Positions 15 to 44,911 of a DNA stretch of 64,000 bases are shown in pieces. The notes below the pieces were generated by a model. It worked only from the letters and a program-made list of their open reading frames with translations. It did no database searches and was not told the origin of the DNA. The position numbers and the translations under genes are program-made. Source of the stretch: Balanoglossus misakiensis (taxonomy: Eukaryota; Animalia; Hemichordata). Every line of letters begins with the position of its first letter. Positions within the stretch are counted from its first letter, which is position 1. The stretch is taken from assembly GCA_040954595.2 (NCBI GenBank), contig CM082589.2:7251186-7315185 (forward strand), written 5' to 3'.

Positions 15-353
15 TTAAAGGGACAATGTCTCTCTCTCGCTGCCCTTTTTCCATTAATTATGTTTGATACAAGACACCGTTTATGTTATACAGTGAATGA
101 ACTTTCAACCACACACACCTGCCATCCCACTTATAGACACGAGAGTGAAACATCTCCCCAAAATGAATAATCAGTCTCTACCATTTATTCATTTTGGGCA
201 AGTTTTTAGTCTCATATCCTACAAACGGGATGGAAGTTGTGTGTGGTCGAATGTTGATTCACAATATATCCACATGTAGAATAACATAAACGGTGTCTTG
301 TATAAAACATTAATGCAAAAAAGGCCTGTGAGATAGAGACTTTGTCCCTTTAA
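15..353. mobile_element. MITE family A (TTAA TSD, AGGGAC termini; Kolobok-like non-autonomous DNA transposon)
   Basis: TTAA-AGGGACAA...TTGTCCCT-TTAA with long imperfect TIRs. Homologous copies at 26717, 35256, 39241 and 48537. TTAA TSD with 5'-RR termini fits Kolobok. Confidence 0.8.
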
Positions 354-364
354 TATATCCACAG

Positions 365-7393: not shown

Positions 7394-7425
<32 letters not shown>

Positions 7426-10400: not shown

Positions 10401-11047
10401 AAAAAGATGATTTTCATATCCCCCATTGTAGATTTTCGTGACGCACGGTCGACAATGGCAACGGTATAAATCAGTATCCGTATCTCAATTCGAGTGGTGA
10501 AAAAAAGTGTATACTGGATACGGCGTCAAGTTGCTGTACAGTTCAAGGACGATAGTTATTTTTTTGCGGAAGACGATTCGGTGATATTTTCCAAGTGAAG
10601 AATCTCCTCCTACAGGCAGTGCAGAAAATTGATCTAATACGAATCAATTTTGTCGGCTTTGAAAATGAGACTATAATTGAACAACATTTGTCTCTCTGAG
10701 TGTGGTCTAATTATCGGAAGCTTCAATTCGATTTCTCCTAGCTAATATTACAGGTGCATTGTCCGTGGTTTGAAGCTGACTTATCCCTTCATATCATTAC
10801 AGGGGGAAAACCACCGAAGGACGCCACGGACATCATCGAAGAATACCAGCGAATTCCAAGACTTTACGTCATCATATTTGGCGGTTTGGCCGGCGCTGGT
10901 GTCCTTCTGGCGCTCCTCTGTCTCGCCTTCACCGCTCACTACTGGAGGAGATCGTGAGATCATTATTCTTTCTTGAAATAGAATTCTAACAGTTTTGATC
11001 TAAAGGCTTGTCGTTAAAGGTCACACTGTTGTCACTCTCTTTTGTGC

Positions 11048-11078
<31 letters not shown>

Positions 11079-11084
11079 TAGATC

Positions 11085-11157
<73 letters not shown>

Positions 11158-21400: not shown

Positions 21401-21699
21401 GAAAGTTGCTATGGTGACTCACCATGCCAGATGTTGGCCTGAGCTTCCCAGAATGTTGCGATGCTGTGTCGGGCACCGTCCCAGAATCCCCTGGAGTAGG
21501 CGTCAACTAACTGATGCCTGGATTTGTAAATATGACAGAACACCGCGCAGCCGTACAGGAAGAGAACGATCACCGCCGGCAACACGAACATCACGATTAT
21601 CGGCGTGAACAGCCATATTAGCCATTTGATCAGATCGAAGTCCAAATGCAAGACGATGTCATGAATCCATAGGATGTAGTCAAGTATTAATTCTTTCAT
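18472..21699 (-). CDS. TMEM68: Transmembrane protein 68 (DGAT2/GPAT-like acyltransferase)
   Basis: Exons 21699-21423, 20617-20450, 19973-19780, 19455-19316, 19130-19067, 18576-18472 give 315 aa. Motifs FWDGAR, WHGYEIIGLEKIP, YYHGAIPID, SPGGVREA, PIIPLFTQNCRE, PIYGGFPVK and GDPIPYDP. The start codon could lie further upstream. Confidence 0.93.
18730..19029. mobile_element. MITE family E (TTAA-CCC termini, piggyBac-like)
   Basis: TTAACCCTAACGCTG...CAGTAACATTAGGGATAA; second copy at 45581-45898. Confidence 0.75.
20136..20348. mobile_element. MITE family B (TA TSD, CTGTAAAACACTTTATTTTCGCG TIRs; Tc1/mariner-pogo-like)
   Basis: ~210-bp element with TIRs; eight copies in the window. Confidence 0.8.
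20652..21322. mobile_element. Nested MITE cluster: pogo-like outer element containing two family D copies and a piggyBac-like MITE
   Basis: Outer TIR remnants TGAAACCTGTC and GGCAGGTTTCACTGTA. Family D copies at 20694-20885 and 20923-21118 (inverted). TTAACCC...GGGTTAA element spans 20882-21169. Confidence 0.7.
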
Positions 21700-24630: not shown

Positions 24631-24643
24631 CCAAGATGGCTGC
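24631..24643 (+). promoter_or_regulatory. YY1-like motif (CAAGATGGC) in the CpG-rich CCM2 5' region
   Basis: CCAAGATGGCTGC about 130 nt upstream of the CCM2 ATG. Confidence 0.4.
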
Positions 24644-24763
24644 GTCCATGAGAAGAAATCGACCGTCGCGAATATTTTCAGGAATAATTGTCCTTTTGTG
24701 AGGAATAATCTCTTTGGCAGATGGTATACAGAATGCTTAGATATAAGTCTAACAAGGGCTGGA

Positions 24764-27700
24764 ATGGATGATGATTCAAAAAGTCACGAACCGAAACGAC
24801 GGGTAAGAATAAAATCCTTAAATATTGTGGTATGCAAATTATTTAACAAGGAAGTGAGTGTCGCTTGTGCGATCGGTGTTATTTTCGCTGCTCAATCAGT
24901 AAATACTGAAATAATTTGCGCGATATTTCATAGGTGATCTGCTATGATACAGGGGAGTTTAATTCTGAAAGTCGATTGTGTGCAGGTCATCGGCGCTATT
25001 CAGAAAAGGCGACCACACCCATTGTAGTTATTGTGTGTGTGTACATTCAGCTGTTGGGACGCATCCAGCTGCGCTTGTTCTCAGTGTCAAAACAACACAA
25101 CGGCGTGACGTAAATCCGCTCGCTGGCTTCTCGGGACGGTGCTGCGTATATATGGACATAGAGATGCACGAAACGTAGCGTCGGCCAGATTCGAAAATGC
25201 ACTGCCCGCTGATATTTCACCTCGCAGAAATGGTACTACCTGCTTGTCACTTCAATACGTAATCCTGTAGTGATGGTATGTATGGTACATCTGCGTACCG
25301 GTGTACATGTAAAGACAAAGCAATTAACGCTTGGTTTTAATTATCAAAAGGCAATCCCGCTTTCACTAACAGAGATCGGGTTTTAATGCGTGTTTTTTAC
25401 GATCTCATGGATAACGTTTCATTTTCCGTGCGCAAACAGGTGTATGTGGCATTGTTTTAATCACTTACTGCTCTGAAACTGTTTGAAAGCACGTACATGT
25501 AGTCAGTGTTTGCTTTGTGTGACAACTGAGCCAGTTTACATGTAGGCAGTGAAAAGAAATGCTCATCAAAGCAAGCATTCTGGTAAATCCGTCAGATGAC
25601 TGGTTTGGGATCGAGTCTTTTTAGATGGTTGAAGCCTTTTCAGTCGTGTTTGGATGACTCACACGTTGATACAGAGACGGTTGTCAGTTTGGTTTGCGAA
25701 ATCGGCAGACAAGGTGACCTCATTTAGTTCACTCACATGGTGATCACATTGTTCATGCATGAAAAGTGGCGTACAAGTGTAAACACAAGATCTGTGTTGA
25801 TTCCGAATGCCAAGGTCACGCCAGTATTTTCTGTTACTTGTTTGGTAACCATATGCGAGTGGTACAGACAACAAACTTGGCATATTTTCTTTACGTTTGG
25901 TTACTTGCATTCTTTTGTATAAAAAGTAATATAACCTTCATTTGTCAACTCTGAAGGAGGGAGAGAGTGTTCCTCTGACGACTAAGGCATGGCATGTCCT
26001 TCAAGGCATGCTAGCCTCACCTGTCAACCGCCAATGAAGTATGGCTGCAAAGCGCATTCCATAACCCTTACATTGTAGACAATTTCCAATTTGAGTACCG
26101 TTGGCCAATTTACTGTAAAACACTTATTTTTCGCAAGTTAAAATTTTCGCGATATCGAGAGAGGCCAATGTTTCGCGAGTATTAATTTTCGCGTTCTCTT
26201 ATTTCATTCACTGCATCGTTATCTTCAAAAAAAATTTACGCGACTTTTTATTTTCACGCTATTTTGGCTCTCGCGTATTTCGCGAAAATTTATTGCTTGC
26301 GAAATTAAAGTGTTTTACAGAATTGACCAATAGCTATTTTTGGCCAGTACATTATTCTCCATTTTTTTTCTTCTCGCAGCAAAGTGGAGGAAGATTGATT
26401 CCTCGCGTTTTCTCCAGAAGCAGTGACAAAGACAAAAAGATGCCGCTGAGAGAAAGTCGTCCCATGCAAGAACAGCGGCGAGCTCTGCGCCCCTACAACA
26501 TCATAGGTCCCAACTACAAAGTAGATGCACAAGTGTTGATAGACAGCTATATTGAAAAAGAAATTAAGGTAAGCAGGGTTCTGTCCACTCTGGCTTAACC
26601 AGCACTCAAGTGAAAAAGCTATCAAAGGCTGCCTGCAGGCACTACTGTGAGCTCAATCTGGTCTTGTCTATTTCGATACATTGATGAATGGGTATGACTT
26701 GCAAGAGACATGAATATTAAAGGGACAAAGTCGCTCTCTCGCTGCCCTTTTTCCATTAATTATATTTGATACAAGACATCATTTATGTTATTCTAAATGT
26801 GGATATATAGTGAATCAATGTTCGACCACACGCAACTTCCATCCTGTTTGTAGCATATGAGAGTAAAAATCTTGAGATTTGAGACACACAATGAGTTTGG
26901 TTCCAAAGTTGATTTAAAGAAAAAAATGTATCTTTCCTCACACAGTATCTCGGACAGATACCCAAAATACCTGCAGATTTAGACCCCACCAAGAGAACTG
27001 ACATCCTGCGTGTTATAGATGAAGGAAAGGTAAGCATATAAGTTCTCAGTGTTATTTCATAAAAAGTTGGGCATAAAATCTGTGGAGAAGAATTTTTCTA
27101 ACAACTTCATTTTTATCTCCCCGGGCTTTTCTGAGCTGTTGGTACATTTACAATCTGTGTTTAACAAAAAATTAGTTACAGTACACATGAAATGTTCTTT
27201 TCTGACATGGAACAAACAATTCAATCGATTGACCTTAAATTAGCTAACAACCACTACTGTTAACATGGTTTGTACAATTTTTACGGATATTCGTAATTTT
27301 CCATGCTTATCATCCAGTGAAAGCATTCGTGCATAAAACTTAATGAGTTGCAATCAGCAAAGAAAACCTCTGTACAACTTATGAATGACAGTGACCTTTG
27401 CCCCTGAATGTCAACTCCACCCCGCCTCACAATACGTGTGCCCTTGTTTCTGTGGGCAAAACGCGACCACACCTCTGAAAGACAATGAAATTGGGGACAA
27501 AGGTCACATTTGAAGAGGGTTTTTTTTTATAGCCGATTCAGGCAGTCCACGGCTTATGCGGTCCTGGACAGTACTAAATTTTTACCTGAATCCTGCAAAG
27601 TTTAAACCAAAAGTTCTTGGAATTTCAGAAGAAAAATCCTGGAAAAAGTCACTTCCTTAGTTATCCTTGTAAAATACTTGATAAAAAGTCACGGAATTTG

Positions 27701-30700
27701 AAGTGATTACTAGTTCTGTTCATGTGTGGTAGAGATGACAAATGTTCCAGGACATCGTAGCCATATTTTGTCCGCTTTGCTTCTAAAACTAATACGGCGA
27801 GGTACTAGACTAAGGACATGCATACCTTGCATTCCTTCATGCACAATGCAGTTTTGAAACATGTTACTGTGTGTGTAATTTGACAGGTTCACAGTCTGAT
27901 ACCCTGGAAGACGGATGGACCCGAGCTGGACGCTATCTTGTCCATCTCGGCAAACAACGTGAAAGTCTTGAGGAGAGATGGAGAGGTGAGCCACAGGTCA
28001 TTTCTATACTTTTGCAAATATAACAATGGTGTAATACTGTAAAACACTTTATTTTCCCAATCAATAAATTTTCGCGAAATACGCGAGAGCCAAAATAGCA
28101 TGAAAATAAAAAGTCGTATAATTTTTTTGTGAAGATAACGATGCAGTGAATGAAATAAGAGAACGCAAAAATTAATACTCACGAAACAGTGGCCTCTCTC
28201 GATATTGCGAAAATTTCAACTCGCGAAAATAAAGTGTTTTACAGTATGCTGTGCTTTGTATGGAAGGCAGTTTTGCCAGGGTTCCCCAGTCAAGTCATCA
28301 AAGTTCCCAGATAGTTTATCAATGTTCCCCAAGATAAGGGATTAAGTACAAGGTACATTGAAGTCATCTGAAACTGAAATAAGCTAGTGTTAATCCCAAA
28401 CCCTTCCACCCCCATTTCACTGCATATGGGTTCAACCATCCCATTGAAAGCAATCGGGGCCGTACCAAAACTTGTCAGCTAGAGGGTAACTCTCGTATAT
28501 TTCCACCTACAGGAGTTACTCTACCGAGCGTCGATTCACGAAATAGCCTCTCTGAGCTACGTCAGGGATGACGGACAGCACCTCATCGGATGCAAAGTGG
28601 CGTCCAAGGAAAATGTTAACGACCTCAAACTCATCGTGTTCCAGTGCCACAGCAAGGCAGCTGCCGAGGAGGTCTGTTCATTACTCCGGCAGACGTTCGA
28701 ACTCGTGTACACAGAGCTGACCATGAGTTTTCTCGATTACAGTATTCATCAAGGTGCTGCCAGATTTCACTCACTCAGAAGTTGTAAGTGTAATATTTGT
28801 CATCATACAGCCTTTGTACCTTGAAACTCTGGTGACCTATGACCTCATTTGGATGTTTACTTCCTGGCCGAGTACAAAGGGCTTTGATAAATTATGAGAA
28901 AAAAAAAATGCCGTTGTTAAAGTTATGCACACATTACACCTTTTTCATTTCAGATGCCAGTCTAGCTAGCAGGCCAGGTCTAGATGACTGGATAGGATTG
29001 CCACCACGGTAAGTTTACAAGTATTTGCACGATTGAAAATTCTCTAACTATCCTGATATGTCCAACTTTGTTAGTTAAACTTCAGTCATTTCAGATAACC
29101 AATTTTATTGCCAAGACTTCCAAATAGTTTCATCCCTCTCCCTCAAGCCTTGTGTGTTGTAGAGTCAACCCCTGACAAGATTGTTTGTTGTGATGGTGTA
29201 AATCACTAAATGTACAACAGCACTTAAGAATGAGAGATTACTTGTTAACTTTCAGCAATCGGCCGGGACATGAAAGACGGCCGAGTGAAGGGGACCTTAG
29301 CATCTCTGCCAAACAGATGTTACAAGAATACATTGAATTGGTGAGTGCAGAATACACTGACTCTATGCAGTTTCCACAAAGCAAAATACACAAATAACAT
29401 AAGTGGCCATGGATAATAAAACCGCACATGACAAATGAAAGAAACTGTGATTTACCTTGATTACATGACATGTAACAACCACCATTGATGGATAGACAGA
29501 TAATAATGTAAATCCACAATAACAGTTGTCAGTTATATGAAAGGATGGGACAATAGCACCAAAACAATGGATTCATCAAAACAATGGATTTGGGCATCTA
29601 CTTCTGTAATATTTTAATGATAAAGAAATACAACTTAAGGATGTGTGTTCAGTAAAATTGAAAGCATTATCATTTTTTTAATTGTGGATTTTTGGATTCT
29701 CCTTTGTATGTATAATAAAAATCCGTAATAAAATATAGGGGTCACAGCGCTTGTTTTTGAAATACAGAGCCATGAATTTAGTCGATAATAGAAGAAACTG
29801 CTGACTCAGCATTTTTCACCAATGGTTTGTCTATGGGCAAAGTTTTGAACGCAATTTATCTCAAAAAAGAGCTCGGTGACCCCAATATTTTATTTGACCA
29901 GTGAATTTATATTTACTGGACTGAGCTTTGTGTGAAATTTCGTGAAAATGACAAAAGTAGAAGTTTGTTTTCTAGCGATTATCAATGTAATCCTATGGGA
30001 AAAAGACGGGTGCGCGCAGTTTTCCGGTTTATGTTCTGCGCGAACATCCTTAAAAAGGTTTTTTGTTTTTACATCTGCAGTTGAGAACCAAGCTGACGTC
30101 CGAAGAGCTCCAACGATTTGCGGTCGTTCTGAGAGAGTACAGAGAAGGTATGGCTGTGGAGCAGTTCTGTTCGCGGCTTCAACGTCTGTACGGACAAGAG
30201 AGAGTATACCTCTTCCCAGGTGAGTGACACAAACCACATTTTTCATTATCCGTGTAAACTTTACCGATGAATCATGAGGTTTTCGGAAGTTCCTTGAATG
30301 TTGAAGGGGTCCTTTCAATAGAATTAAACCAGTGAATAATCAGCCTCAAGCTTTTGCGTTTAATGCTTGTCCCAACTTGGAAAATAATTTAGAAATGTCG
30401 CAAGAAACTCTCGGCCTGAAACATGTATCATGGCAAGTGTTATTCTTTGTTGGATTTATGGAAAATGTTAGTTACTTTGGTGAGGGTCTATGTGATTTGT
30501 CGACTATATTTGCTATTTCTGAACTTGCGGCATGTATGTCCTTTGCTCTGTTTTTTTTTTTAGGACTCCTACCTTTCATCCCGGAAAAAGACGGGGACTA
30601 TTTCGACAGTTTCCTTGAACGAATGGGCATCCACGAAGGAAACGGACTAGTTCACAGCTCGGGGCGGCCGTACGCCCGCACAATGAGCGAGACGTCGTCG

Positions 30701-30829
30701 TCCACGCTCGGAGCGGCCGAGAATGGCGTCTACAGCCACTCCATCCCGTCGGAGATCGACGAGTTCGATCGCATGATGAGCGAAATCTGCAACGACATCG
30801 ACAGCCTCGAGAGCAGCATCGACAACTGA
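24764..30829 (+). CDS. CCM2: Cerebral cavernous malformations 2 (malcavernin): PTB + harmonin-homology domain
   Basis: Exons 24764-24802, 26380-26568, 26946-27029, 27887-27985, 28513-28783, 28954-29008, 29256-29340, 30081-30219, 30564-30829 give 408 aa. Motifs YIEKEIK|YLGQI, RTDILRVID, DAILSISANNVK, IHEIASLSYVRDD, AAEEVCSLLRQTFELVYTE, LRTKLTSEELQRFA and GLLPFIPEKD. Confidence 0.95.
26111..26320. mobile_element. MITE family B
   Basis: TACTGTAAAACAC...GTGTTTTACAG. Confidence 0.8.
26717..26870. mobile_element. MITE family A, truncated
   Basis: TTAAAGGGACAAAGTCGCTCTCTCGCTGCCC left end only. Confidence 0.7.
28035..28246. mobile_element. MITE family B
   Basis: TACTGTAAAACAC...GTGTTTTACAGTA. Confidence 0.85.
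29635..30053. mobile_element. MITE family C (~415 bp, TTAA-GGATGT termini; Kolobok-like)
   Basis: TTAAGGATGT...ACATCCTTAA; copies at 38025, 49457 and 61579. Confidence 0.85.
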
Positions 30830-33800
30830 ACAGGGAAGTGAGGTACTCCCTGGAACACTGATTTTCAGCTCCGTTTGCCGCGTTTGGAAAGGATTGTGTG
30901 CAATGAACAATAATGTGTAAAGGGAACCGCAGTGGTCCTATTGCTGGAGTTGAGGAGTCTCAACACTAATATTGCCAAAACTGAGGAGTAAAGATGTGCA
31001 TTTATTTGAATGTAGAGAGTCGGGCTATTAACCATACTGTTGGATCAACGGAGTTGCATTACCTGTACTGTTGGTGGAGAGATTGACATGACCTTATGTT
31101 GTTGGCTCCAGGAAGTCAGGTCAGGTTACCCATACTCGTGGACCTAGGGAGTCACATTGTCCATATACGGTAGTTGGCCCTAGGGAGTCACACGTCCGGT
31201 AGTTTTGAGTCTGGGGAGTCGCAACTTGCTGCACTGCACATGCGATGAACTTCCGAAACTCTCGAAAAAACATTTCCAAGCATCCTTGTTCAGATGTGGA
31301 GTATATACCAAACTTGGATATAGAACTCGCACCAGCGGCAATGGACTCGGTCCGAACGTGGACATTTTTTTAAAAAAAAGCTGCGCAATATAGATTGTTT
31401 GCAGTGGATTCTTGTTGACTTTTTTGCTGTTTTGAGTACCACCAAGCCACAAACTCTTCATAGAAGCTTTTTTGTCATGTTTTTTAAAACACAAAAACCT
31501 GTGTCCAGTTGTGAACAGACAAATAGACGGGCTGCTATCTGGGTACTCAACCCAGTGGGGGCACCCAAAGACATTGTACAAAACAGCCCATTCTGAAGCT
31601 TAGCTGGTCCAGCTCAGACTGTTAAACAGCATTTTGTTTCATATTATTTAAATGTCCAGAAAGTGTGTGATTACTTTTATAACAAGGAGAGTGTGTAAAA
31701 CAGATGCAAAGTACTATTGTGCTGTCCAATTTCCTATTAACTCCTTTTTTTCTGAAATTTAATTATAATAGTGGTTATCTATATTTTGCTGCAGTAAGAA
31801 GTGTTACCAGTGTTGGCAGAGAAATTATCTGCCTTTCAGCTAGATGATATTATATGCCATTAATTATTCTACATGTATGAAAATAACATACAAAATACTT
31901 GGGAACTACTGGTACAATTATTCGTGTTACTCACTCAATTAATCCTGGACAATGTGAAAAATATATGGATAAGTCACTCAGTTTTCAGAGTGATACTTGA
32001 CTCGTATGAACATGACACATTTATGAGAATTTTTGAGTCGCAGCCAAAGATATGTAATAAAGAAATTTTGAGCAAAGAGCTGCAAGTTGCAGTGTTCTCC
32101 CTGGGCCCAGAGGGAAGCAGGATGACTAATTTGCATAATTTATGTAAGCTAATTTACATAATATATTCATTTAATTTGCATAATTAGCGGTTTATTGAAT
32201 ACACCTGAGGAATGCACCTGCTCATTTACTGGGAGAGATGCTCTCTGGACCGGGCAAAGTTAAAATACCTGTATACCTCATTAGCAAGTCACTGTAGTAT
32301 GTTTAAGTCTTTTTTTTTTAGAGTAGCATGTTGTGTGCCGAGTCATGGGGTCAGATGTCAAAGGTCGCATCCCAAAATGCACCAGCTGAATGAAAATTGC
32401 CAGGGACTTGGAAGTTTGTTGGCAAAGTTAAAGTTTGAACCGTATATTGTTGCACAGTTTATTCAGATTTTACAAGAATAATTTGACCGATATTGATGCG
32501 TGCTTCTGCATTGGACCCCAGATGTGAACTTTGACAGGCCATTTCCTCGTACAATAATAACACTATTAACACATCACATCGCCCGTTCCGGTCCGCAACA
32601 CATTACATTTGTATCTGTAACATTTTGTGTGACAATACAAAACTTTCAGTGTCTTTGATTACAAAGAGGGTCATTCATGTGAGAATTTTTTTTTTTTTGG
32701 ACAGTTTCTGAGGCTTGTGTCCATGCGTCTAAATTGTACCCACTATCAAATATCAGCTTTAATACCGTGAACTGATTTTCCACCAAACGAATATTGCAGC
32801 TAGTCAGTGTTTATATGAATTGTTTTGTCTACCAGAGTTCCTTGGTGGGGTCACTTGTTGCCATGGCAATGAACTTTGACCCAATAGACAGAATAGGTAC
32901 AGTTAACTCATATGTTGTATATGGAAATTCATAACTTATTACATGTATATCAGGTAGAGTTTGTGGTGCTTGTAATTTTAAAGGTAAATGAGTGTTTGTG
33001 AATGGAGATTTTAAAGAACGAGTCAAAATGAATCTTTTGTAGAGGTAATCAGTGCACAAGAGTTGAGTTCTTTTTGACAACGAAATGATTTGAATTCTGC
33101 TCCGACTGTTTTGCCAAGTCGGGCAGTCAGGAAATCAGTGACGTAAAAGCATGCACACACACACACAACAGCATCTATGATCAGTGGTTGGTGTTTGATA
33201 TTCACCATTTCTGACGACGAGCGAGGACTTTTTTGCGTTTGAAAGAAAGTCTGACCAGGATGGGAGAGTTTCTAGTGGGTGGCACTGTTCTAGTTGTTGT
33301 GATAGATAATTTAATGTGGTGTATCAGCTAGATCAGACCGGGATTGATATCATCAGTCCATCAATGTAATGTTATCTGCAATAAAATTTAACTTTTATCA
33401 ACTTGAAAATTGCAAGAGGACCAATGGCTTCATTTTTAAGCTCCCATTAAATTTTGGTATATGTATGTATAGCTTATGGGATCAGTTGCCTGGATGTGTG
33501 TGTCTGTCTGTTCACTGCAAAAATTTGAGAATGTATCACCTTGGTATTTTGCTTGTATAATTATACATCTTGGACAATCTGCAGAGTTGAAGTTTCGACC
33601 AGTCCATTGTGGGTACACATAGAACCCACGACAAAAAAATAATTTTCACATCACAAGAATTACTGTGTATTTTATACAAAGTTTATTTCCATAAAACAAC
33701 TATTAATGATCAATAATTAATAAGACTATGAAAATTATACACCCGCTTTTAAAAAACTATCAATATAGTTGAGCTATCACAAAAATCTGTCTATATCATG

Positions 33801-35255
33801 CACTCCTCACAAAAAACATCCACAATATTCAAATTGCAGACATATATCCAAAATAAATAATGACTATTTGACGGCTTTTTTCTCAAATGCCTGAGTGGTC
33901 GTATAAAAATACTTCTATCAGTCACTGGTACAAAGTAGAATTTGCATTTTATTAATATATAAATTTCTGAAAGCAAAGTTAACTTGTGTACTCCAGTACT
34001 TACAGTTCTGCTTATGCCCTGCTGGATTGAGAGGTTAAGGGGATATTTCTAGGTACATAATTTAAGAAAAAAAATTCTGAAATTACCAAGTAATGATGTT
34101 GATTCTGTGTGGCCGAAATTGCCTTCAAAATGTTTCCTTGCATTTATTTCAATGTTACATTGTTATTCTGTAAGAAACATTTCCAATTCAATTTCCAATT
34201 CCCAAACCTTTTCAAGACCTGTATTTCTGTGACGGATATGAGCAGATGAAGTACAGAAAACATGACAATACAAAAAGCCCACTCATAGGCTTAGAAATGC
34301 AGAGCTGCAGTGCAGAGAAAAAAATCATTGAGGTCAAAGGTTAATCAGGAGGGATTCGACAACCTGTTCACATCTAAAGGAGCCTCAGTAATGCAAGATT
34401 CTTCGACACCTCTAGTTGTCACCCAATTGGTTGTTGCCATGGTATTTATATCACTGAAATTTACATAACAAAGGAAAGCTCAGCCAACCAATAGTTGGCC
34501 TCCTATTGTTACAAGAAGTACCCTTATTAGTCAATTCTAATATCAACAGAAGAAACTGAGAAGTATCGACCTTTTTCACCATCAATCAACAGAACTTGAC
34601 AGAATTCGAATAATAGAGTTCAGATTTGTTAAAAATTAAATATACATGTACATACATATACATGACACAGACATGTTACTCAACCTTTGAAAAATATGAT
34701 ACATCAACTAAATTAAGTAACACTTGATTATAAAGAAAGGAACAGAGATAGAAAAGTACCAGATGAAATACAATGTTAAAGATTAGTTGGCAGGAATAAT
34801 TATTAACATGTCTTTTGAATGCAGCTATTATCATACTTGTTCATCGCTCAGTTGTTTTGTTGTGTGGCTGTCAGTTTTTATTTTTTGAATAATTGCTGAG
34901 ATTTTACTGAATGAAATATGCAGCTTCAAGAAAATCTGTTCTAGTATAATTTTATTTCAGCTTTCTACAACACATGCAACATCTGCAGCAGGGGCAACTT
35001 TGACCTTTGACCTCGACCGACACAAATATCACCATTATCTCAATTATACGGGGAACTGGGGAGAAATGACATTTTTGTGATTCTTCGCTTTCATGAGAAT
35101 GTGTATACTGCTTGGAAAAATACATAGTATTGACAAATAACTGAATACACCAACAATACAGGAATTTCCAGAAAGCAAAATTTTCAAAAAATATTGATGA
35201 CACCTTTTTAATTTTAAACTAGTTTTCAAATTCAGACATGAATTAAATCATATAA

Positions 35256-35435
35256 TTAAAGGGACAAAGTCTTTCTCTCGCTACCCTTTTTTCATTTATT
35301 ATATTTGATTCAAGACACGTTTTTGTTATTCTACATGTGGATATAAAGTGAATCAACGTTCCACCACACACAAAGGGTGTCTTGTATCAAACATAAAGGA
35401 AAAATGACAGCGAGAGAGAGACTTTGTCCCTTTAA
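35256..35435. mobile_element. MITE family A, internally deleted
   Basis: TTAAAGGGACAAAG...CTTTGTCCCTTTAA. Confidence 0.8.
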
Positions 35436-36345
35436 ATAAAGTTGTACTGTGTATCAGGGTTAGTAAACCAAAAGGTATATTTTTGGTGGGCCTAAGTTAA
35501 ATCCACACAGTCCAGTATATATTTTCTCGGGGATGTTTTACAATTTTGTCATCTCACTGTAAAGTTATTGCTCTAATAGTAGTGAACAACTCTTTGTAAG
35601 AAAGAAAAAAACAAGTGACATGATCTATCTTGGGTATTTCATGAAACGTCCAAACCATTAAAAATGCTTAAAAATTAAATAAAAAAAATTAACGTGATAC
35701 ACGTCACTGAAATGAAAACATGGAATATTCACAAAAGTTGATTTTAAGGGAAAAGGTCAATATGGTCTGCAAGTACTGCGTTCTTCTTTGGCATCTGGGT
35801 ATAACTGTTAAGAGTCAAAACTTCAGGCAAGAAAAAAATACCTGCAGGACATGTGTTGTGTTCAAGGCTTCTTAAATTTTTTTACTACAAAATAGAGTAT
35901 TGCTTTGCATATAGTCCAACCTGTACCATATAGCGGGTGAGCAGATAGCTGCAAGATGCATTCTCTCGTCTCACCCCTGCGTTTCTTCTGCAAATGGAAC
36001 GTCCCTGCATGTAATGATAATTAGGACGTTCCAATATGCCTTAGAAAGGGGTGGTAACGGCCGAACTCTTAGTCACGCACTTTTGATCTGTTCTTCATGT
36101 AGAAACTCACTTCTCAGTTTCCTTTTCGTGTAAATGTTTCTTGCAAAACTTGACTACCTCATCGTTTCGTCCAAAATACAGCAACAGTCAGCGAGTGCCT
36201 ACATGTTTCTACGCTTCAACATGCAGAGGCTGTAAATCACATCTTTCTCCACGGCTGCTCTCGAAAAACGGCGCAGCGACATGTCTACAAACAACATGGT
36301 CCAAAGGCATGAAAAGACAACCCTGTTGGTCGTGCATCACTCGAG

Positions 36346-39300
36346 TCACAAAGTCCTGTATTTGACTGCCGGGTCGCTCTGCAAGACCTCGATCTCGCAA
36401 ATCGCGTCAAACATCTGTGTCATTTTGCCGCAAATGGTTTCTGCTTGGTCCTGAGAAAAAATGAAATCATCAAATATTTTTGAGTGAGGGCTACAAGATT
36501 GACCGTGGGGACATCAAACCAAAGAAATACAAAATTCACAAGACATCAAACCAAAGAAATACAAAATTCTAGTGAAATCTAAGACGCCTATTTTAGCAGC
36601 ACCAAAAAATGATATTTGTCTCGTACCTGATTATGACACTGAAATACAAGACAATCGTAGATGTCGTCGCCCACTTTTCCGATTTTGACGGCAAGCAGAG
36701 ACCTTTTCTGTTCGTCTTCAAAGTTGACAACCCTAATGATGTCAGACAGAGGGTATCGGTTCCTAACAACCTGTGAAATGAAGAATTTACAGACACATTG
36801 AAAAACCTTTGTAATTATATGCCTAATCCTGAATAAAATGTCGCACACAGACTGCTGCATTCCATTGAAAATAGACAGAAATTAATGATAGCAGAACTTA
36901 ATATACTGTAAAACACTTTATTTTCGCGAGTTGAAATTTTCGCGATATCGAGAGAGGCCACTGTTTCGCGAGTATTAATTTTCGCGTTCTCTTATTTCAT
37001 TCACTGCATCGTTATCTTTAAAAAAAAATTACGCGACTTGTTTTTTCACGCTATTTTGGCTCTCGTGTATTTCGCGAAAAATTTAATGCTCACAAAAATA
37101 AAGTGTTTTACAGTAAATAAATGTAGGTGAGTACTTAGGAATAATTTTATAGCTGTTTTACACACACTGTATGCACTGTAGTGCATCAAATGAAAATACG
37201 GCTTGACTTTTCCGTGAAAGAGCTCACTCATGGATAATTTCCTAATTGTTGCTATATTTGGTCTGATATACAATGTATGTGGATTGAGTGCCAACCTGCA
37301 AATTTATCAATTAATCATCAAAGTGTATGCACCACACCCATCATTACACACTACACTGAACATTACATTCTGGTAGTATGAGTAGGTTATTTATACCCAC
37401 TATTAAAGTCACTGCTGAAAGTGTTTTTTTTTTTTTCAAAAATTTCAACATTACAGCACCAATTTTTTCCAGCATTTATCATGAGTTAAAGAACACCTAC
37501 ATTGCACTACCATTAATCTAAAATGTTCTGTCATCCAAAACCAGGAAAATGTGCATTGTCAAAAATGAACAACTTTTTCTCTTTGAAACAACAAATCCCT
37601 CAAGACAACTACGTTCAAGTAGGCTATTTGTGGATAAGTTAAGCCATATTTTACAAGGAAGTAGCGTTACGCCCAAAAACAGTTAATTCTATCCACGTAC
37701 ATCACGCACGTACCCTGCAGATCGCCGACTGAGCATTGTCATGGTAACGCTACAGTTATATCGAGGACTACACAATTAGTCATTTCGTTTGGGGGCCACA
37801 CCCAGCAATACAATACTCCAAGCATACAAATTTGTAAACGAGTCCAATTTGGTGCGTTGCCATAAACAGCTCTTGTGAGATTGCTGTACAAATTTTGTAC
37901 ATTCACAGAAAGACGTGTACACATGATGTCATCACGCATACACACAGTGACTCACACACACGCACGCACGCACACACAGTAGCTTACATTTTCAAATCTA
38001 GACTCACACAGTCACTTGTTTACTTTAAGGATGTACGTTCAGTAAAACTGAAAGTATTGCCATTATTTTTTAATTGTGGATTTTTGGATTCTCCTTTGTA
38101 TGTATAATGAAAATCCGTAATAAAATATAGGGGTCACAGTGCTTGTTTTTGAAATACAGAGCCATGAATTTGGTCGATAATAGAAGAAATCTGCTGACTC
38201 AGCATTTTTCACCAATGGTTTGTCTATGGGCAAAATTTTTAACGCAATTTATTTCAAAATAGAGCGCAGTGACCCCTATATTTTATTTGACCAATGAATT
38301 TAAATTTACTGAACTGAGCTTTATGTGAAATTTCGGGAAAATGACAATAGTAGAAGTTTGTTTTCTAGCAATTTTCAATGTAATGGGAAAAAGACGGGTG
38401 CGCGCAGTTTTCCGGTTTATGTTCCGCGCGTACATCCTTAACTCACAAGATTGAAGAATTTGATGTTCTCATGAGTACAGTATACAACACAAACAGATAA
38501 ACAAGAACATAACAGCCATAATTGATTATCTTCACACTTCACTTTCAAGAACACTAACAGCTGTACAATGTGTTACTCACTTTTGGCGATGGAGGAAAGA
38601 CTTCTGTAAGCTTCACTCCGTGTTTGGACAGCGTCAGAATCACAAAATCTTCCCCGTTCATCTTCAGCGCTATTTGGCCACTAGTCTGAAAGATTTATCA
38701 AAACACAAATATTTCATTATTTGGAATAATTTATTTGGATATTACACATGACGCAAGTCACAGGCATACATGTACTTGGATGGTACCTGTTACAATCATC
38801 ATCGACCCTTTCACCACCGTGGTTTGACCCAAATCCATTGTATTCTATGGTAAAGGTGGACCTCTTAAAAGGGAACTAGGGGTGAAACGGTTAATACAGT
38901 CCTGCAAAACTAACTGTGATTTTTGTAGGACAGAAAGTTTGGCTTTGCTCCTTTCAGAACAGCACGCGATTCAGAGGTCATGGTGAGAGAATACAGACAA
39001 ACACTGGATACATGACCCTCCAACCGTAGACAGAATACATGTAGACAAATATTAATTAATAAACCTTGATCTGACAACCAAGACCTTTTCGGTGCAACAC
39101 ACCGCCACCCAGAGAGCTTACACCTACTTTGTGTATCGTATGACACGCAATGACACCAACAGTAGTTGTTCATACAAGTATTCATTCTGTGCGATAGCTA
39201 TCAAATAGCAAACATTCAGGAAAGCAATTTCATACGCCAGTTAAAGGGACAAAGTCTCTCTCTCGCTGCCCTTTTTCCATTAATTATGTTTGATACAAGA

Positions 39301-42300
39301 CGCCGTTTATGTTATTCTACATGTGGATATATAGTGAATCAATGTTCGACCACACACAACTTCCATCCCATTTGTACGACATGAGAATAAATGAATAAAT
39401 GGTAAACACCGATTATTCATTTTGGCGAGTTTTTCAATCTCGTGTCTATAAGTTGGATGGATGTTGTGTATGGTTGAACGTTGATTCACTGTATATCCAC
39501 ATCACATGTAGAATAATATAAACAGTGTCTTGACATAATTAATGGAAAAAGGGCAGCGAGAGAGAGACTTTGTCCCTTTAATCCTCCTAGCCAGGCCGGC
39601 AACCGCTGGCCAGAACAGTCCTGGCACTGCGTGGTATATGGAAATGGACGTGAGCTGGGCTTAAAATTCCCCAAACGGATTGATTACCGATTAACGATTT
39701 CCATTCATGTCGGACAATGGCAGAACCACAAAGACGCGAAAAATGCACCAGCAGTGGCAATGAACGATGTAAACACAGAAGCCATAATCTCAGTTCAAGC
39801 ATGTTCTGTATCAGTCAGTTGCACTGATTCTACATTGTAGTGAGATATGCACAAGATTTACATGTCAATACACACAATATTCTACAATGTTTAACTGATT
39901 AATACATGGTTGAATACAGTAATTCATAATTCATCAACACGGGAGATTAACAAACACAAAATTAAACACTAAAAGAAGCTAAATATTATCAAAATGATAT
40001 ATGCATTTTTTTTACACAAAAAGATGGTTTTGTTAGTTTCACTGACACACTGTCATATCATGGCTGCCTTTGATAATGTTGCCATGGCAGCGCTTAGCAA
40101 CACATTATCCCTAGGCACTGTTGAACAATAACCTTCTGACAACAAACATTTCTTGCAGAGTGGCAATTAGGTAAAATACCATGCTGACCCATTGCTAAGG
40201 CTAGCAAATCAGAAAATCTTTGATACATACATTGTACTGTAAAACAATTTATTTTCTTGAGTTGAAATTTTCGCGATAGCGAGGGGGCCACTGTTTCACG
40301 AGTATTAATTTTCGCGTTCTCTTATTTCATTCACTGCATCGTTATCCTCAAAAAAACCTTTACGCGACTTTTTATTTTGGCTCTCGCGTATTTCGCGAAA
40401 ATTTATTGCTCATGAAAATAAAGTGTTTTGCAGTATTAAACTGTGTGCACACGTCAGGGCTGTACACTGGGCACCGAGACGATCCACGACCGCATTCAAA
40501 CTTTTGTCACATGCCACTTTACACTGAAACAGCACAACGTTTCCCCTCTTTGATTTGCACTGAATAAAGCCCAGCCGAGCGTGAAGAATCGATGGGTGTT
40601 TACCTGATTTCAGAGAACCGACCTATGACCCCCACCATTCATCAAGCTTGGGTGTGGTGCCAGTTCAACCGCGTGAATTATATGGTTTTTATTTATTTTT
40701 CCGCCATGATGAAAAAAAAAAACACTGAATAGGTCCAACAATTTCAAATTTTTTTCTACTCCATGTGGATGGTTTGTTTTTTATATAAAAATTGATAAAT
40801 CAGACAAGATAGGTACATGCTTGAGACACTTGAGAATCTGATGCGCGTTGTTTTTTAACATGTATGTGTCAGAATTAACCTCACTGGTGATGTTTATTTA
40901 ACCCTGGTACTGTGTCCAGTTCAGCATTTCCGCCCAACTACGACAACTATTGTGGTTGGCCATAATAGAAGAGGCCCCTGGAAAAATAGAGCGCCTTTCT
41001 GAAAACAGCCGAGGTCTCGTTTTCCGTTGTGATGTCACGCAGCTGCAGACATTTTCCCATTTCTGTGCAAATGACAAACCTACAATGCAATCTACGTAGG
41101 AGCTGAATAGGTCTGCCAGCTCTCTTTGGTATATTGAAAAGACGCAAAATTCACAATAATGATCTTCTTATATTTTTTGCCTCAGAAATTCTGACATGAA
41201 CCAAACAGGCAAATCAGTCATTATCAATTCATATACAGCAATTTTTTTCTTGGCAGTTTCTGAATTAATTAAATAATTGAGTCAAGTTATACAGCTGATA
41301 TTAAATAAAATAAAAATCTTTTTCATATTAATAAGTTTCATATCACAGATGACAATATATATATTTAATTTTTTATGCAGTGAATCATCAGGCAGCCCAT
41401 CACTGCTCAAAAGCATAACATTAATCGAGTTACTGTAGATCGGGGTTCTGTAAATTACATAATGGATTTATTTATGTATAGCTTGACAAATTATACATTT
41501 CAATTTAGCATTGTGTAGATATTTTGATGAAGGAAAAAAATATATAAACAAAGTGGTAAGACTTTCCTCTTTTTGGAAAACCCACTTCAAACTGCATCCC
41601 GCCATTTTCAAATGAATACAAATGTCACGCGTCTCACCTTGGCATGGTCCAGAGTATTTATTAAATCAATATGATCTTCTTGAGAATGGTCAAGCCCTTG
41701 GACATTGTTGAGAATTCCAATGACCTGGACTCGGAAATCTATAGCTGTGTGTAGGATATCTTTGCCAGATACACTAAATGCATCTGAAATACAAACAAAC
41801 AAAAAACAACAGATTATTTACATGTACATGTATGTATTTATCAATCTTTTCCATATATGAAGCAAAATTATGAGAACGCCAGTAACAAAATATTCTGAGG
41901 GGTCAATTTGATTATTTTTTTTACAGCAATCCATACATAATGAAGTTTACCAAATACTAATTGTACACTAAGTCTACAAGCCTAAGCAGATAGACAAAAT
42001 TTTTCAAAACTTCTGGTTTAAATGCAAAACTCTTTCAGACAATCAGATGACTTCTGAAATACCATTTCCCTCTATAATAGCTTTTTCAAGCAGCAAAGTA
42101 GTTATCTTGGGTTACAAAACTAACTGTAAGTCACGATCTGAATACATCCGGACAGTAACAATATACCAGGGTTCTATACTTGGCATTTTGCCAACACGGA
42201 GCAAACATGACTGTATATAATGAGTATTATATCCTGTACTGCTACTACGTATCCTGTACCAATACCAGAAAAAAGACCACACTGAAACTGGTCTTACACA

Positions 42301-44370
42301 GGAAGACACTGACACAAAACCAGATTTAAAGCCAAAAATATTATTCTGATCATTTGATCATTCCAGGAAGTTTTACATACTAAAATACATGTATTACACA
42401 TCACATAAGTCATGATGCAATCAACGATGCAATAATTTGATTATTGATTGGGAAAGTTGGAAATAAGCATTGTTCTCATCAGACAATTTACGTTTGCCCT
42501 AACCAAGTGTGTTATAGTTTATTATAGTTTTACTTTGGATAAAAATAACCGAAATGGACATGATAATGTGATGGCGAACCAGAGCTGGACATGTGCATGT
42601 AAGTGTGAACACAAGACTTCAGCAAACCCTAGAAATGATTTTTCAGCTATGGCCAGACCCCGAATGGACGTGTGTCAGAGCGAACATTCCTGACACATTT
42701 CTGGTACCAGGCCAATAAAGATAGACCTCAGGACCACTTGGGGAAATCATGGCTATTTTAACATCATAAACACAGACACACTCCACTTGTTTTAAGTAAA
42801 CATCATTTCACTCTCTGCTGCCCCTGGGAAGGTCTAAGTAAACATTTTCAGTTCAAATTGATTTCCCCATCCAAACTATTTATAAGTATTTAATATTATA
42901 CCCCAATGTCTACTTAATTCTCTTGGTAATGATGCAGCTAATACATGTACCAACTCTAATTTAGATATTTTTTTCTGTTTTTTTTTTTTTTATAAACTTC
43001 ATAATTATCTATTTTTTCATTCATTAATTGACAAATGCCAACAGAAAACAAAGGATTGCAACATGAAAATACCCAGTCTTTACAACATAGTCAGGCGAAT
43101 CTGGGCTGGGCACTTCAAGTTCAACTTCAAGGTAAAGACTGATATCTTACCCTTTTCGTCAACTGATGTACTACAGTCAGGTGAGGGCTGATGAATTTCC
43201 TCCGCAATGCACTGTTCTATGACCACTTCTGTTCTTGCAATTTTATTTTGACGATTCTGGTGATCCCCACCTAGTTCGGAACACTGCAAAAAAATGTCAT
43301 GTTAGCAAACCATGACTTATCATGTGTGGTTGGTGTATTTTTTGGCATTTTTTCATTCACTGGTGCGTTATTCTTTTGTTTATTGTTCAGACTTGTTAGA
43401 CTCCGCAACATGATTTGGAAAATACATGGGTATGCAGAATGGAGTTTTCGCTATGATTTGAACGTTGTTACGTTAATTAAAATAGCAGTGACTGAGTGAG
43501 AAAACTCTGGTGGTTATACTTAATTAATTTTTTTTTCAGCAGGAAATGAGGAATTACAAATCTCCTATATATTATAATCTCTTATTTTGAAAATCTTTTA
43601 AATAAGTGTTTATAACATGTGTTTACAAATTCTCAGCCAGACTCTCAAAACTATAATTAAATGTTTTCAACAGAAAGGCAAAATTGAATGGGGCGTATTT
43701 TGGCTTTGTGACAACCAGAAAAAGCTTTAGAATTCCACGGTTTAATACCATTCTCCTGGACTATAATTCCCCGGGATTTGAAAGGATTAGGGAATCTAAT
43801 CACGGGTAGCATCGACACCGCCCTGGCTAATGCTGGCTGCTTCTTTTTATGTGCAATGAACTAACTTCTCGAAATTCTGGCACTGTTATCTTACAAACTT
43901 GGTGTTTTTTTTCTGGCATGACTGTAGGTCACCGCACGATATGGGTATAAAGTACAATGTGTGACTATGACTAGCAGTAAAGTGTAAACGCCCAATACAT
44001 GATCACAGTGTTATCACTGGAATGAACTGGATGGCTGCAAACAATCCGCAGCATGGACAGTGCGTAAGCCGTAAGTGCTGGGTGTGGTCGCTGTGTTTTG
44101 ATAAACGTAGACGTCACTGGATGGAAAAAATACTGCCTATGTGCAGTCATGCACCCGATATGTGCATTAAAATAATAAAAATCCCTGGTGCGCTTGTACT
44201 AGCGGATATTATAGCGAGTTCCTATGTGCCGGGCGACCGTCGCCAATATACAAATGGCGCGCGCTGCTACTGTGTACACTTACGTGAGAGCTCCGAAAAC
44301 TGCCCCCTTCCACGATCGCGTCAGTACTGCCATTGTGATCTCTCTTCTTGGTCTTATTGCCTTTGAACAT
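36346..44370 (-). CDS. ITGB1BP1: Integrin beta-1-binding protein 1 (ICAP1), PTB domain
   Basis: Exons 44370-44284, 43283-43151, 41783-41638, 38685-38581, 36770-36627, 36450-36346 give 239 aa. MFKGNKTKKR (cf. human MFRKGKKR), DFRVQVIG, IDLINTLD, LSKHGVKL, IIRVVNFED..RSLLAVK, VFQCHNQDQAETIC. Confidence 0.88.
36904..37115. mobile_element. MITE family B
   Basis: TIRs with TA flanks. Confidence 0.85.
38025..38441. mobile_element. MITE family C
   Basis: TTAAGGATGTAC...GTACATCCTTAA. Confidence 0.85.
38803..38894. mobile_element. Short piggyBac-like MITE (uninterrupted homolog of 20882-21169)
   Basis: ACCCTTTCACC...GGTGAAACGGTTAA; its reverse complement aligns with the interrupted element in the TMEM68 intron. 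Confidence 0.6.
39241..39581. mobile_element. MITE family A
   Basis: TTAA-AGGGACAAAGTCTCTCTCTCGCTGCCC TIRs at both ends. Confidence 0.88.
40235..40435. mobile_element. MITE family B
   Basis: TIRs with TA flanks. Confidence 0.8.
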
Positions 44371-44911
44371 CAGGGCACAGCAGCAAGTGCTCATGAATTC
44401 ATCCGTTCGTGGGCACCCCTCACCAGTCACAACATAACAGCACGCTAGATATTGTTTTGACAGACGAGCTAATGAACCTTCGGGTCGGCCATCTTGGGAA
44501 AATACCTCTGCGCAAAGGCTCATGGGTACTTCGGTACCCATGATTCATTTTCCTGGGCCACAACTATTCGTGTTGATGGGACCTCCCCAAACGTTTTGAT
44601 AAAATGCCAGAATGTCTTGTATTTCTCAAAAGTTAAACTCTTCAGAAGCATTAAATCAGTATCATTAACAAACGTTTTGTGATATTTATCCGTAGATCAA
44701 TGTAAATGTCTGGAACAACCCTCTAAATATTTCCCGCCAGTACCCACGACCGAATGGTTTGGCCCGCCGCCATATTCACAATATTCGTTTTCCCTGAGTG
44801 TGTGGCTGGTGGCAGTGTTGCAAATTTCAGTCGGTATATTTGGTGAAACTTCGCCAAAAACAATATACTTTGTCTGCATTTGCACCCTGAGCTATCCATA
44901 AGCACATCAAT
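44371..44911. promoter_or_regulatory. Probable bidirectional promoter between ITGB1BP1 and TCEA
   Basis: Only 541 bp between divergent ATGs, CpG-rich, with YY1-like motifs GGCCATCTTG (~44487) and CGCCGCCATATT (~44765). Confidence 0.6.

What the first reader, a model, noticed from the sequence alone, without database searches (positions are those of the whole stretch)
24764..44370. CCM2 and ICAP1, the two KRIT1-binding PTB proteins, are adjacent tail-to-tail
Seen: CCM2 (+) and ITGB1BP1 (-) are neighbours with 5.5 kb between their stop codons. Established: ICAP1 binds the first NPxY of KRIT1/CCM1, CCM2 binds the second and third, and the human genes are unlinked. Inference: this is an ancestral mini-cluster of CCM-complex genes, retained from a local duplication or kept for co-regulation.
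Basis: partly seen in the sequence, partly recalled or inferred. Interest (0 to 1): 0.72.

Follow-up and report, generated by a model that had tools for sequence, protein, structure and literature searches.

The report
Ancient neighbouring KRIT1-partner sister genes
In this acorn worm the genes CCM2 and ICAP1, whose human proteins both bind the vascular-disease scaffold KRIT1, lie tail-to-tail in a four-gene order that published tables also list for a brachiopod and, in part, for amphioxus, sea star and oyster; they appear to be sister genes, likely left side by side by a very old duplication rather than held together for joint control.

Summary
Confirmed. This enteropneust window holds intact CCM2 (+, 9 exons) and ICAP1/ITGB1BP1 (-, 6 exons; start 44394, not 44370), 5,516 nt stop to stop, in the order TMEM68<>CCM2><ICAP1<>TCEA. 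ICAP1 orthology holds by Pfam, fold and tree.

The adjacency is ancestral. Published supplementary tables list the same order in Ptychodera and Lingula, CCM2-ICAP1 consecutive in oyster and amphioxus, and both genes in one block in sea star and Saccoglossus. It dates at least to the bilaterian ancestor and is already catalogued (Robert 2022, block 3117), though I found no discussion of it.

CCM2 and ICAP1 are each other's nearest PTB family by sequence profiles and most fold searches. The split predates sponges, probably choanoflagellates. Best reading: a relic of that duplication, dispersed in vertebrates after genome doubling.

Co-regulation is not supported: each gene faces an unrelated 5' neighbour, and the CCM2-ICAP1 link is kept no more often (5 of 8 lineages) than its flanking links (4 and 5 of 8). 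No RNA data; adjacency outside bilaterians is untested. The scan's earlier notes held nothing on this locus.

The parts
24764..30829 (+). CCM2 gene, 408 aa (PTB + CCM3-binding LD-like motif + harmonin-homology domain). Exons 24764-24802, 26380-26568, 26946-27029, 27887-27985, 28513-28783, 28954-29008, 29256-29340, 30081-30219, 30564-30829
   Evidence: open frame, GT-AG; PF16545; homologues; tree
36346..44394 (-). ICAP1/ITGB1BP1 gene, 247 aa (Cys-rich and basic N-terminus + one PTB domain). Exons 44394-44284, 43283-43151, 41783-41638, 38685-38581, 36770-36627, 36450-36346
   Evidence: model; named orthologues; PDB, Pfam, fold of orthologue P0004; tree
30830..36345 (.). 5,516-nt tail-to-tail interval; presumably both 3' UTRs (not mapped). 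189 nt have a repeat copy elsewhere in the window; AATAAA occurs 5 times on + and 9 times on -
   Evidence: tiled by DNA contigs in 30 of 30 bins, no single piece spans it
18472..21699 (-). TMEM68-like acyltransferase gene, 315 aa, 6 coding exons; divergent from CCM2; member of the conserved block
   Evidence: open frame; weak Acyltransferase/DAGAT hits, below cut-off; name rests on the same position in Ptychodera and on recall
21700..24763 (.). TMEM68/CCM2 head-to-head interval (ATGs 3,065 nt apart); inferred bidirectional promoter near 24.5-24.7 kb, with a possible TMEM68 5'UTR donor near 24486
   Evidence: inferred, no transcript starts mapped
44395..44911 (.). ICAP1/TCEA head-to-head interval, only 517 nt between the ATGs; inferred shared bidirectional promoter
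   Evidence: inferred, no RNA
44912..49001 (+). TCEA/TFIIS gene, 297 aa, 9 exons, one AT-AC intron; divergent from ICAP1; member of the conserved block
   Evidence: TFIIS_M, Med26 above cut-off; model
332..15522 (+). GABA-B-receptor-like class C GPCR exons (not fully modelled); flank shared with Ptychodera and Saccoglossus only
   Evidence: 7tm_3, ANF_receptor

Best explanation
CCM2 and ICAP1 sit tail-to-tail in a four-gene order (TMEM68, CCM2, ICAP1, TCEA) that published tables also give for Ptychodera and the brachiopod Lingula, so it is inferred to come from the bilaterian ancestor; the two genes are likely sister copies of one PTB adaptor gene, likely still adjacent as a relic of an ancient inverted local duplication rather than through joint regulation. 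Shown: the gene models, orthology, and each family being the other's nearest PTB family in profile searches. Inferred: one copy kept or gained the harmonin-homology domain (CCM2, KRIT1 NPxF2/3) and the other stayed PTB-only (ICAP1, KRIT1 NPxY1 and integrin beta-1). The pair was then carried passively in a gene-dense block where each gene likely shares a promoter with an unrelated neighbour. Vertebrate genome doublings followed by reciprocal loss likely separated them.
For: Depth: block 3117 'Bilateria novel' (PMC8851819 suppl. 4) lists both genes in 5 of 8 species. Gene IDs are consecutive in Ptychodera (TCEA, ICAP1, CCM2, TMEM68, GABA-B), Lingula (g19952-55) and oyster (EKC24547-49). TMEM68, CCM2, ITGB1BP1 are consecutive rows in 5 amphioxus species, with CCM2/ITGB1BP1 IDs consecutive in 4 of 5. 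Same contig in Ptychodera, Glandiceps and Saccoglossus (242 kb). Sisterhood: ICAP1-only profile scores CCM2 64 bits vs GULP1 40; CCM2-only profile scores ICAP1 53.5 vs GULP1 23. Single sequences agree. VIA Z 17.8 for CCM2 vs 15.0 for Dab2; Foldseek ranks CCM2 next after ICAP1. Two phase-0 introns fall in identical columns. No preferential retention: 4, 5 and 5 of 8 lineages for the three links. Vertebrate dispersal: hagfish orthologue IDs fall in three separate ranges, each also holding an XKR copy (assumes IDs are positional); human CCM2L lies with XKR7.
Against: The duplication is much older than the oldest shown adjacency: sponges have both genes and the tree puts choanoflagellate-like proteins on both sides, 98/93. 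Robert 2022 dates the block to the bilaterian stem, not earlier (that method needs three or more genes, so it cannot see a lone pair). No non-bilaterian genome was shown to keep the pair. The ESM Atlas puts CCM2 only just ahead of GULP by structure (700 vs 694) and ranks a PID1 cluster first by features, with no CCM2 row shown. The trees have no outgroup PTB. The shared introns may be general to Dab-like PTB genes (recalled, untested). The retention count is small and the table has gaps (amphioxus is missing from block 3117).
Confidence: 0.62

Rival explanations
1. The pair is held by selection for co-regulation: a shared enhancer in the 3' interval or introns, or dosage coupling of two KRIT1-stabilising partners. 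This is compatible with a duplication origin.
For: Three lineages kept CCM2-ICAP1 while lacking one flank in the tables: oyster, sea star, amphioxus. Dense bilaterian blocks show higher co-expression than random blocks in general (PMC8851819). ICAP1 and KRIT1 stabilise each other, and CCM2 loss lowers ICAP1 (PMC7729028).
Against: Tail-to-tail, so no shared promoter; each ATG faces an unrelated gene. Retention of 5 of 8 equals that of ICAP1-TCEA. Capitella and Euprymna list ICAP1 with TCEA but no CCM2. C. elegans has a KRI-1/CCM-2/ICAP-1 complex with the genes on different clones, K07A9 and Y45F10D (different chromosomes recalled). The human genes are unlinked (CCM2 7p; ITGB1BP1 2p25 recalled).
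Confidence: 0.2
2. The two paralogues had long been apart and came together by chance in the bilaterian stem, then persisted as one of about 256 slowly eroding bilaterian blocks.
For: The block is classed 'Bilateria novel'. The duplication is pre-sponge. Scallop neighbours of CCM2 are labelled linkage group L (3 of 3 rows), whereas Ephydatia ICAP1 lies in a mostly J2 stretch.
Against: Landing next to one's own sister family by chance is unlikely, about 2 in several hundred even on one chromosome (my estimate). The scallop ID range mixes J2 and L, and its J2 IDs (PY_T08109-09121) bracket CCM2 (PY_T08160), so the sponge position is compatible with ancient linkage.
Confidence: 0.17
3. The adjacency is a local accident or misassembly, or the minus gene is a recent truncated CCM2 copy or another PTB gene.
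For: The two window proteins are only 21% identical, and single exons stay below the Pfam cut-off for PF10480 (12-15 bits vs 25).
Against: Full-length orthologues score 69-71 bits on PF10480. The window protein nests among animal ICAP1s (99/93) with amphioxus and vertebrate ICAP1. The same order is listed in other phyla.
Confidence: 0.01

Closest known systems
Microsyntenic block 3117 'Bilateria novel' (Robert et al. 2022, PMC8851819, suppl. file 4) and pan-cephalochordate block 4 (PMC13012124, Dataset S2)
   Same: This is the same locus: TMEM68, CCM2, ITGB1BP1, TCEA, plus GABA-B-like genes in hemichordates.
   Different: Both are automated listings. Robert's main text names CCM2, ITGB1BP1 and KRIT1 0 times, and places the two genes in separate orthogroups, so the paralogy and shared partner are not noted. 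The tables give no strand.
Human ICAP1 (ITGB1BP1; PF10480; PDB 4DX8/4DX9) and CCM2 (PF16545; PDB 4WJ7/9PVG) in the KRIT1 complex
   Same: Orthologous. 6 of 7 named ICAP1 KRIT1-contact residues and 3 of 3 CCM2 residues mutated to break KRIT1 binding are identical.
   Different: The human genes are unlinked. The acorn-worm ICAP1 has an extra Cys-rich N-terminus, and Q96 is K. Binding was not tested here.
PDCD10 (CCM3)-neuroserpin gene pair (PMC2556349)
   Same: Another CCM gene with a neighbour conserved since the echinoderm-chordate split.
   Different: That pair is head-to-head with a described bidirectional promoter, joins unrelated genes and survives in vertebrates. CCM2-ICAP1 is tail-to-tail, paralogous and broken in vertebrates.
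Ancient tandem-paralogue clusters (Hox/ParaHox type; general knowledge)
   Same: Paralogues that stay adjacent across phyla.
   Different: Only two genes, 21% identical, convergent, with no sign of shared or collinear regulation.

Membership tests
ICAP1/ITGB1BP1 orthologue | PF10480 above gathering score; single PTB, no harmonin-homology domain | tested here: met
   Orthologues at 78% and 65% identity score 70.9 and 69.3 bits vs cut-off 25; no HHD score. Window exons alone score 12-15 bits.
ICAP1/ITGB1BP1 orthologue | Groups with vertebrate ICAP1 in a tree | tested here: met
   Animal ICAP1 is one side of a branch, 99/93, 14 of 41 rows; unrooted.
ICAP1/ITGB1BP1 orthologue | NPxY-pocket and RR-site residues L135, I138, I139, C184, D146, D93, Q96 | tested here: met
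   6 of 7 identical, Q96 is K; read by hand; residue list from PMC6663315.
ICAP1/ITGB1BP1 orthologue | Binds KRIT1 NPxY1 and integrin beta-1 | not testable with these tools
   No hemichordate KRIT1 sequence was in hand; no binding assay.
CCM2 orthologue | PTB + CCM2_C domain; I136/I139/C210; LD-like motif | tested here: met
   PF16545 above cut-off; 3 of 3 residues kept; 6 of 8 LD-motif residues identical; tree 100/98.
Conserved bilaterian microsyntenic block (Robert 2022 definition) | Three or more orthologues, up to five genes apart, in protostomes and deuterostomes | tested here: met
   Taken from published tables; other genomes' DNA was not read.
Relic tandem-paralogue pair | The two genes are sister families | tested here: met
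   Reciprocal nearest family in PDB profile and single-sequence searches and two fold searches. Atlas margin is slim and its feature search disagrees (93). No outgroup in the trees.
Relic tandem-paralogue pair | Adjacency is as old as the duplication (non-bilaterians) | tested here: inconclusive
   No same-genome pair was obtained for a sponge or cnidarian. Linkage-group evidence is ambiguous.
Co-regulated gene pair | Shared bidirectional promoter | tested here: not met
   Convergent orientation; the 5' ends face TMEM68 and TCEA.
Co-regulated gene pair | Retained more often than neighbouring junctions | tested here: inconclusive
   5 of 8 vs 4 and 5 of 8 lineages: no excess, but small n and annotation gaps.
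Co-regulated gene pair | Co-expression or shared enhancer | not testable with these tools
   No RNA holder listed; no DNA of relatives for non-coding alignment.
CCM-complex gene cluster | Also contains KRIT1 or PDCD10 | tested here: not met
   Neither is named among the 40 rows of block 3117 or the 33 of amphioxus block 4 (some rows are unnamed). The two ankyrin ORFs score 20.6 and 26.3 on Ank_KRIT1 vs cut-off 80. No ORF of 40+ aa has two NPx[YF] motifs.

The most novel reading that the evidence does not exclude
CCM2 and ICAP1 arose by one inverted tandem duplication of a KRIT1-binding PTB gene before animals. The copies split KRIT1's NPxY/F motifs between them, and their tail-to-tail junction has been kept ever since by a shared regulatory element, making it one of the oldest functionally held gene pairs and the genomic fossil of the CCM complex.
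Probability: 0.12. Interest if true: 0.78.

Novelty: new member of a known kind. Interest (0 to 1): 0.45.

Why it matters
CCM2 and ICAP1 are treated in the reviews I read as unrelated partners of KRIT1, and one says CCM1 and CCM2 are mainly vertebrate (PMC6663315). The evidence here makes them sister genes present in sponges, probably in choanoflagellates, and neighbours in the bilaterian ancestor. That gives a testable origin for the CCM complex: one adaptor duplicated and the copies divided the scaffold's motifs, with CCM2 linking to MEKK3/CCM3 and ICAP1 to integrin. It predicts residual cross-binding. The synteny itself is an ordinary kind of result and is already in two supplementary tables, so the gain is in interpretation, not a new system.

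Tried and rejected
No whole genome is held for this window, so direct synteny on DNA was not possible.

Sequencing runs: no RNA holder listed. The two DNA contig sets are one sample and no piece spans the junction.

Metagenome scan: 1 locus of 421 pattern matches, a 3.1-kb contig with one ICAP1-like exon and no neighbours.

The third homologue search, with a mixed 49-sequence alignment, gave only 10 hits of 5,194 candidates; only the Saccoglossus scaffold match was useful.

Cluster look-ups of 30 proteins gave 1 same-genome pair (Ptychodera) and 1 transcriptome pair (Vazella), none for echinoderm or sponge genomes; cnidarian members were not identified.

An alignment of CCM2 exons onto ICAP1 was wrong and was dropped. 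24 of 150 representatives were too short for the tree; the second tree used 41 hand-picked rows.

The AU test does not reject an animal-only duplication (p 0.218), so 'before choanoflagellates' is probable, not shown. Only 2 of the 13 choanoflagellate-like rows carry a species name.

Shared introns were not counted as specific evidence, because other PTB genes may share them (recalled). CpG o/e does not single out the promoters. A recalled YY1-like motif occurs 13 times vs 1.35 expected, three of them near the two 5' ends, but most lie elsewhere, so it is a lead only.

Supplements of PMC4729200 and PMC10719294 gave 0 hits (one file not searchable); PMC3514665 supplements and PMC3684052 were unavailable. 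No complex was folded, since no hemichordate KRIT1 was in hand. Earlier scan notes held nothing relevant.
Full report
What is in the sequence. The window is from an enteropneust hemichordate: a CCM2 exon is 83, 68 and 71% identical to Ptychodera, Saccoglossus and Glandiceps proteins, the only 3 hits of 66 candidates. CCM2 models as 9 exons at 24764-30829 (+), 408 aa, all introns GT-AG. The minus-strand gene models as 6 exons at 44394-36346, 247 aa. The stops are 5,516 nt apart. Each gene faces an unrelated neighbour head-to-head: a TMEM68-like gene (ATGs 3,065 nt apart) and TCEA/TFIIS (517 nt between ATGs). The models rest on splice signals and homology, not on RNA.

Identity of the minus gene. 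[quoted passage not shown] The Ptychodera protein (78% identical) scores 70.9 bits on PF10480, cut-off 25. Its best PDB sequence match is human ICAP1, E 1e-14, and its predicted fold matches ICAP1 first in Foldseek. In a 41-row tree the window protein lies within animal ICAP1 (99/93), which follows the animal tree from sponges to chordates. Six of seven ICAP1 residues named as KRIT1 contacts (PMC6663315, passages) are identical, read by hand. CCM2 keeps 3 of 3 residues whose mutation breaks KRIT1 binding (PMC13013565, passages; alignment).

How old the adjacency is. Both genes share a contig in Ptychodera (48.2 Mb; XP_070555919/920 and XP_070555925), Glandiceps (24.5 Mb) and Saccoglossus (242 kb). 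Dataset S2 of PMC13012124 (supplement search and part 2 of 77) lists TMEM68, CCM2, ITGB1BP1 as consecutive rows in five amphioxus species; the CCM2 and ITGB1BP1 IDs are consecutive in 4 of 5. Within amphioxus this is ordinary: 7,972 gene groups lie in such blocks (passages). Supplement 4 of PMC8851819 (40 rows of block 3117; file cut when stored) classes the locus 'Bilateria novel' in 8 species, and 5 of the 8 list both genes. IDs run TCEA, ICAP1, CCM2, TMEM68 in Ptychodera and Lingula, the window's order, and CCM2, ICAP1, TCEA in oyster. Sea star and Saccoglossus list both, with IDs that do not show order. Euprymna and Capitella (rows mislabelled Capsaspora, prefix CAPTE) lack CCM2; scallop lacks ICAP1. 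These may be breaks or annotation gaps, and amphioxus is itself missing from the block. The tables give no strand, so tail-to-tail is shown only here. The block is one of 256 new bilaterian blocks, against 45-56 in shuffled genomes (main text part 1 of 7).

Are the two genes paralogues? A mixed profile returned 219 proteins at E<=0.001; of the best 150, the 126 long enough for a tree fell only into CCM2, ICAP1 or choanoflagellate-like groups. That set is biased by the query, so I used family-only tests against the PDB. An ICAP1 profile scores CCM2 64 bits and GULP1 40; a CCM2 profile scores ICAP1 53.5 and GULP1 23. Single sequences agree: Ptychodera ICAP1 and CCM2 hit only each other among PTB domains, and Amphimedon CCM2 gives ICAP1 45 vs GULP1 20.5. 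By fold, CCM2 has Z 17.8 (rmsd 2.6, 136 aligned) and Dab2 15.0; the ICAP1 representative there is a 106-residue partial chain at Z 14.1. Against this, the Atlas separates CCM2 from GULP only by 700 vs 694 and ranks a PID1 cluster first by features. Two phase-0 introns fall in the same columns, but may be common to related PTB genes (recalled). Sisterhood is likely, about 85% in my estimate.

When they split. Sponges have both: ICAP1 in Oscarella, Sycon, Ephydatia and Vazella; CCM2 in Vazella and Amphimedon. The choanoflagellate Mylnosiga has a MIT-PTB-CCM2_C protein and Diaphanoeca a short PTB-only protein. PMC6040629 reports ICAP-1 in most choanoflagellates (passage). The tree joins the short group with animal ICAP1 at 98/93, but an animal-only duplication is not rejected (p-AU 0.218), and the Diaphanoeca protein is tied between CCM2 and ICAP1 pairwise. 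So the split is before sponges, probably earlier. I could not test adjacency outside bilaterians. Ephydatia ICAP1 is Em0023g52a; of the first 30 of 157 places read in PMC8809688's supplement, 9 of the 13 rows numbered up to g305 are linkage group J2, and their scallop IDs bracket scallop CCM2. However, 3 of 3 nearest scallop neighbours are group L. This is ambiguous.

Why they stay together. Counting by lineage, TMEM68+CCM2 is listed in 4 of 8, CCM2+ICAP1 in 5 of 8 and ICAP1+TCEA in 5 of 8 (tallied). The CCM pair is not favoured, though n is small. A convergent pair shares no promoter. The complex exists in C. elegans with the genes on different clones (PMC6470173, passages) and in humans unlinked (CCM2 7p; ITGB1BP1 2p25 recalled). 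Co-regulation through a 3' or intronic enhancer is untested. For vertebrates, XKR genes flank the triplet in amphioxus and Lingula; hagfish orthologue IDs of TMEM68, CCM2 and ITGB1BP1 fall in three ranges that each also hold an XKR ID (assuming positional IDs); and human CCM2L clusters with XKR7 (PMC7575060, passage). This fits reciprocal loss after genome doubling (inference).

Weighing origins. Reaching one's own sister gene by chance is about 2 in several hundred on one chromosome, whereas local duplications start adjacent and a few per cent may survive (my estimates). I therefore put a passive relic at 0.62, active co-regulation at 0.2 and chance joining at 0.17.

What is known. The block is already in two automated tables; Robert's main text names none of CCM2, ITGB1BP1 or KRIT1. 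Ten full-text searches (listings read, selected papers opened) found no paper discussing the adjacency or the CCM2-ICAP1 sister relation. Subscription papers such as the CCM2 and ICAP1 structure papers and the 2005 PTB classification are outside the library and may note the structural likeness. Unseen supplements (PMC3514665; large files of PMC13012124; the cut part of PMC8851819 file 4) may list it too. The nearest precedent is PDCD10-neuroserpin (PMC2556349, passages), which is head-to-head and joins unrelated genes. Verdict: a real, bilaterian-ancestral neighbour pair of probable sister genes; a new member of a known kind; interest 0.45.

Noticed in passing
window 46636-47087 (+): TCEA intron 5 has AT-AC ends with a minor-spliceosome-type donor and branch site; the frame is open only with these ends. 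A U12 intron in TFIIS genes is recalled as known.
   Followed up: partly
window 44371-44394 (-); P0004, P0005, P0006, P0008, P0009, P0011: Hemichordate, crinoid, brittle-star and sea-urchin ICAP1 start with a Cys cluster before the basic stretch. It is absent from the sea star, amphioxus, vertebrate, sponge and protostome-like records shown. Possible S-acylation membrane anchor; untested.
   Followed up: partly
P0137, P0142, P0135, P0102: Choanoflagellate-like CCM2 relatives carry an N-terminal MIT domain before the PTB, hinting at an ESCRT-related link lost in animals.
   Followed up: partly
window 1800-4120: A transposon-like coding fragment present as two near-identical inverted copies (about 1805-2964 and 3151-4121) inside the GABA-B-like gene.
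   Followed up: no
window 52649-53617 and 56473-57363 (+): Two long single-ORF ankyrin-repeat paralogues of about 300-320 aa, not KRIT1, each downstream of unannotated low-complexity ORFs.
   Followed up: partly
window e.g. 26105-26318, 28038-28243, 36900-37110, 35255-35435: Abundant short repeat families with terminal inverted repeats (MITE-like) in most introns; depth above 250,000 in the DNA contigs, and one is absent from another haplotype at 36894-37114.
   Followed up: no
PMC8851819 suppl. file 4, rows 8219-8222: Capitella rows (prefix CAPTE) are labelled Capsaspora owczarzaki; taken at face value this would wrongly date the block to before animals.
   Followed up: yes
P0053 / P0193: An acoel (Symsagittifera) CCM2-like protein is annotated within an 846-aa 'SUN domain-containing protein 2-like' model, probably a fused gene model.
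   Followed up: no
L001 1283-1765: An ICAP1-like exon of a likely sponge host on a 3.1-kb metagenome contig appears to end at about the same position as the window's last ICAP1 intron.
   Followed up: no
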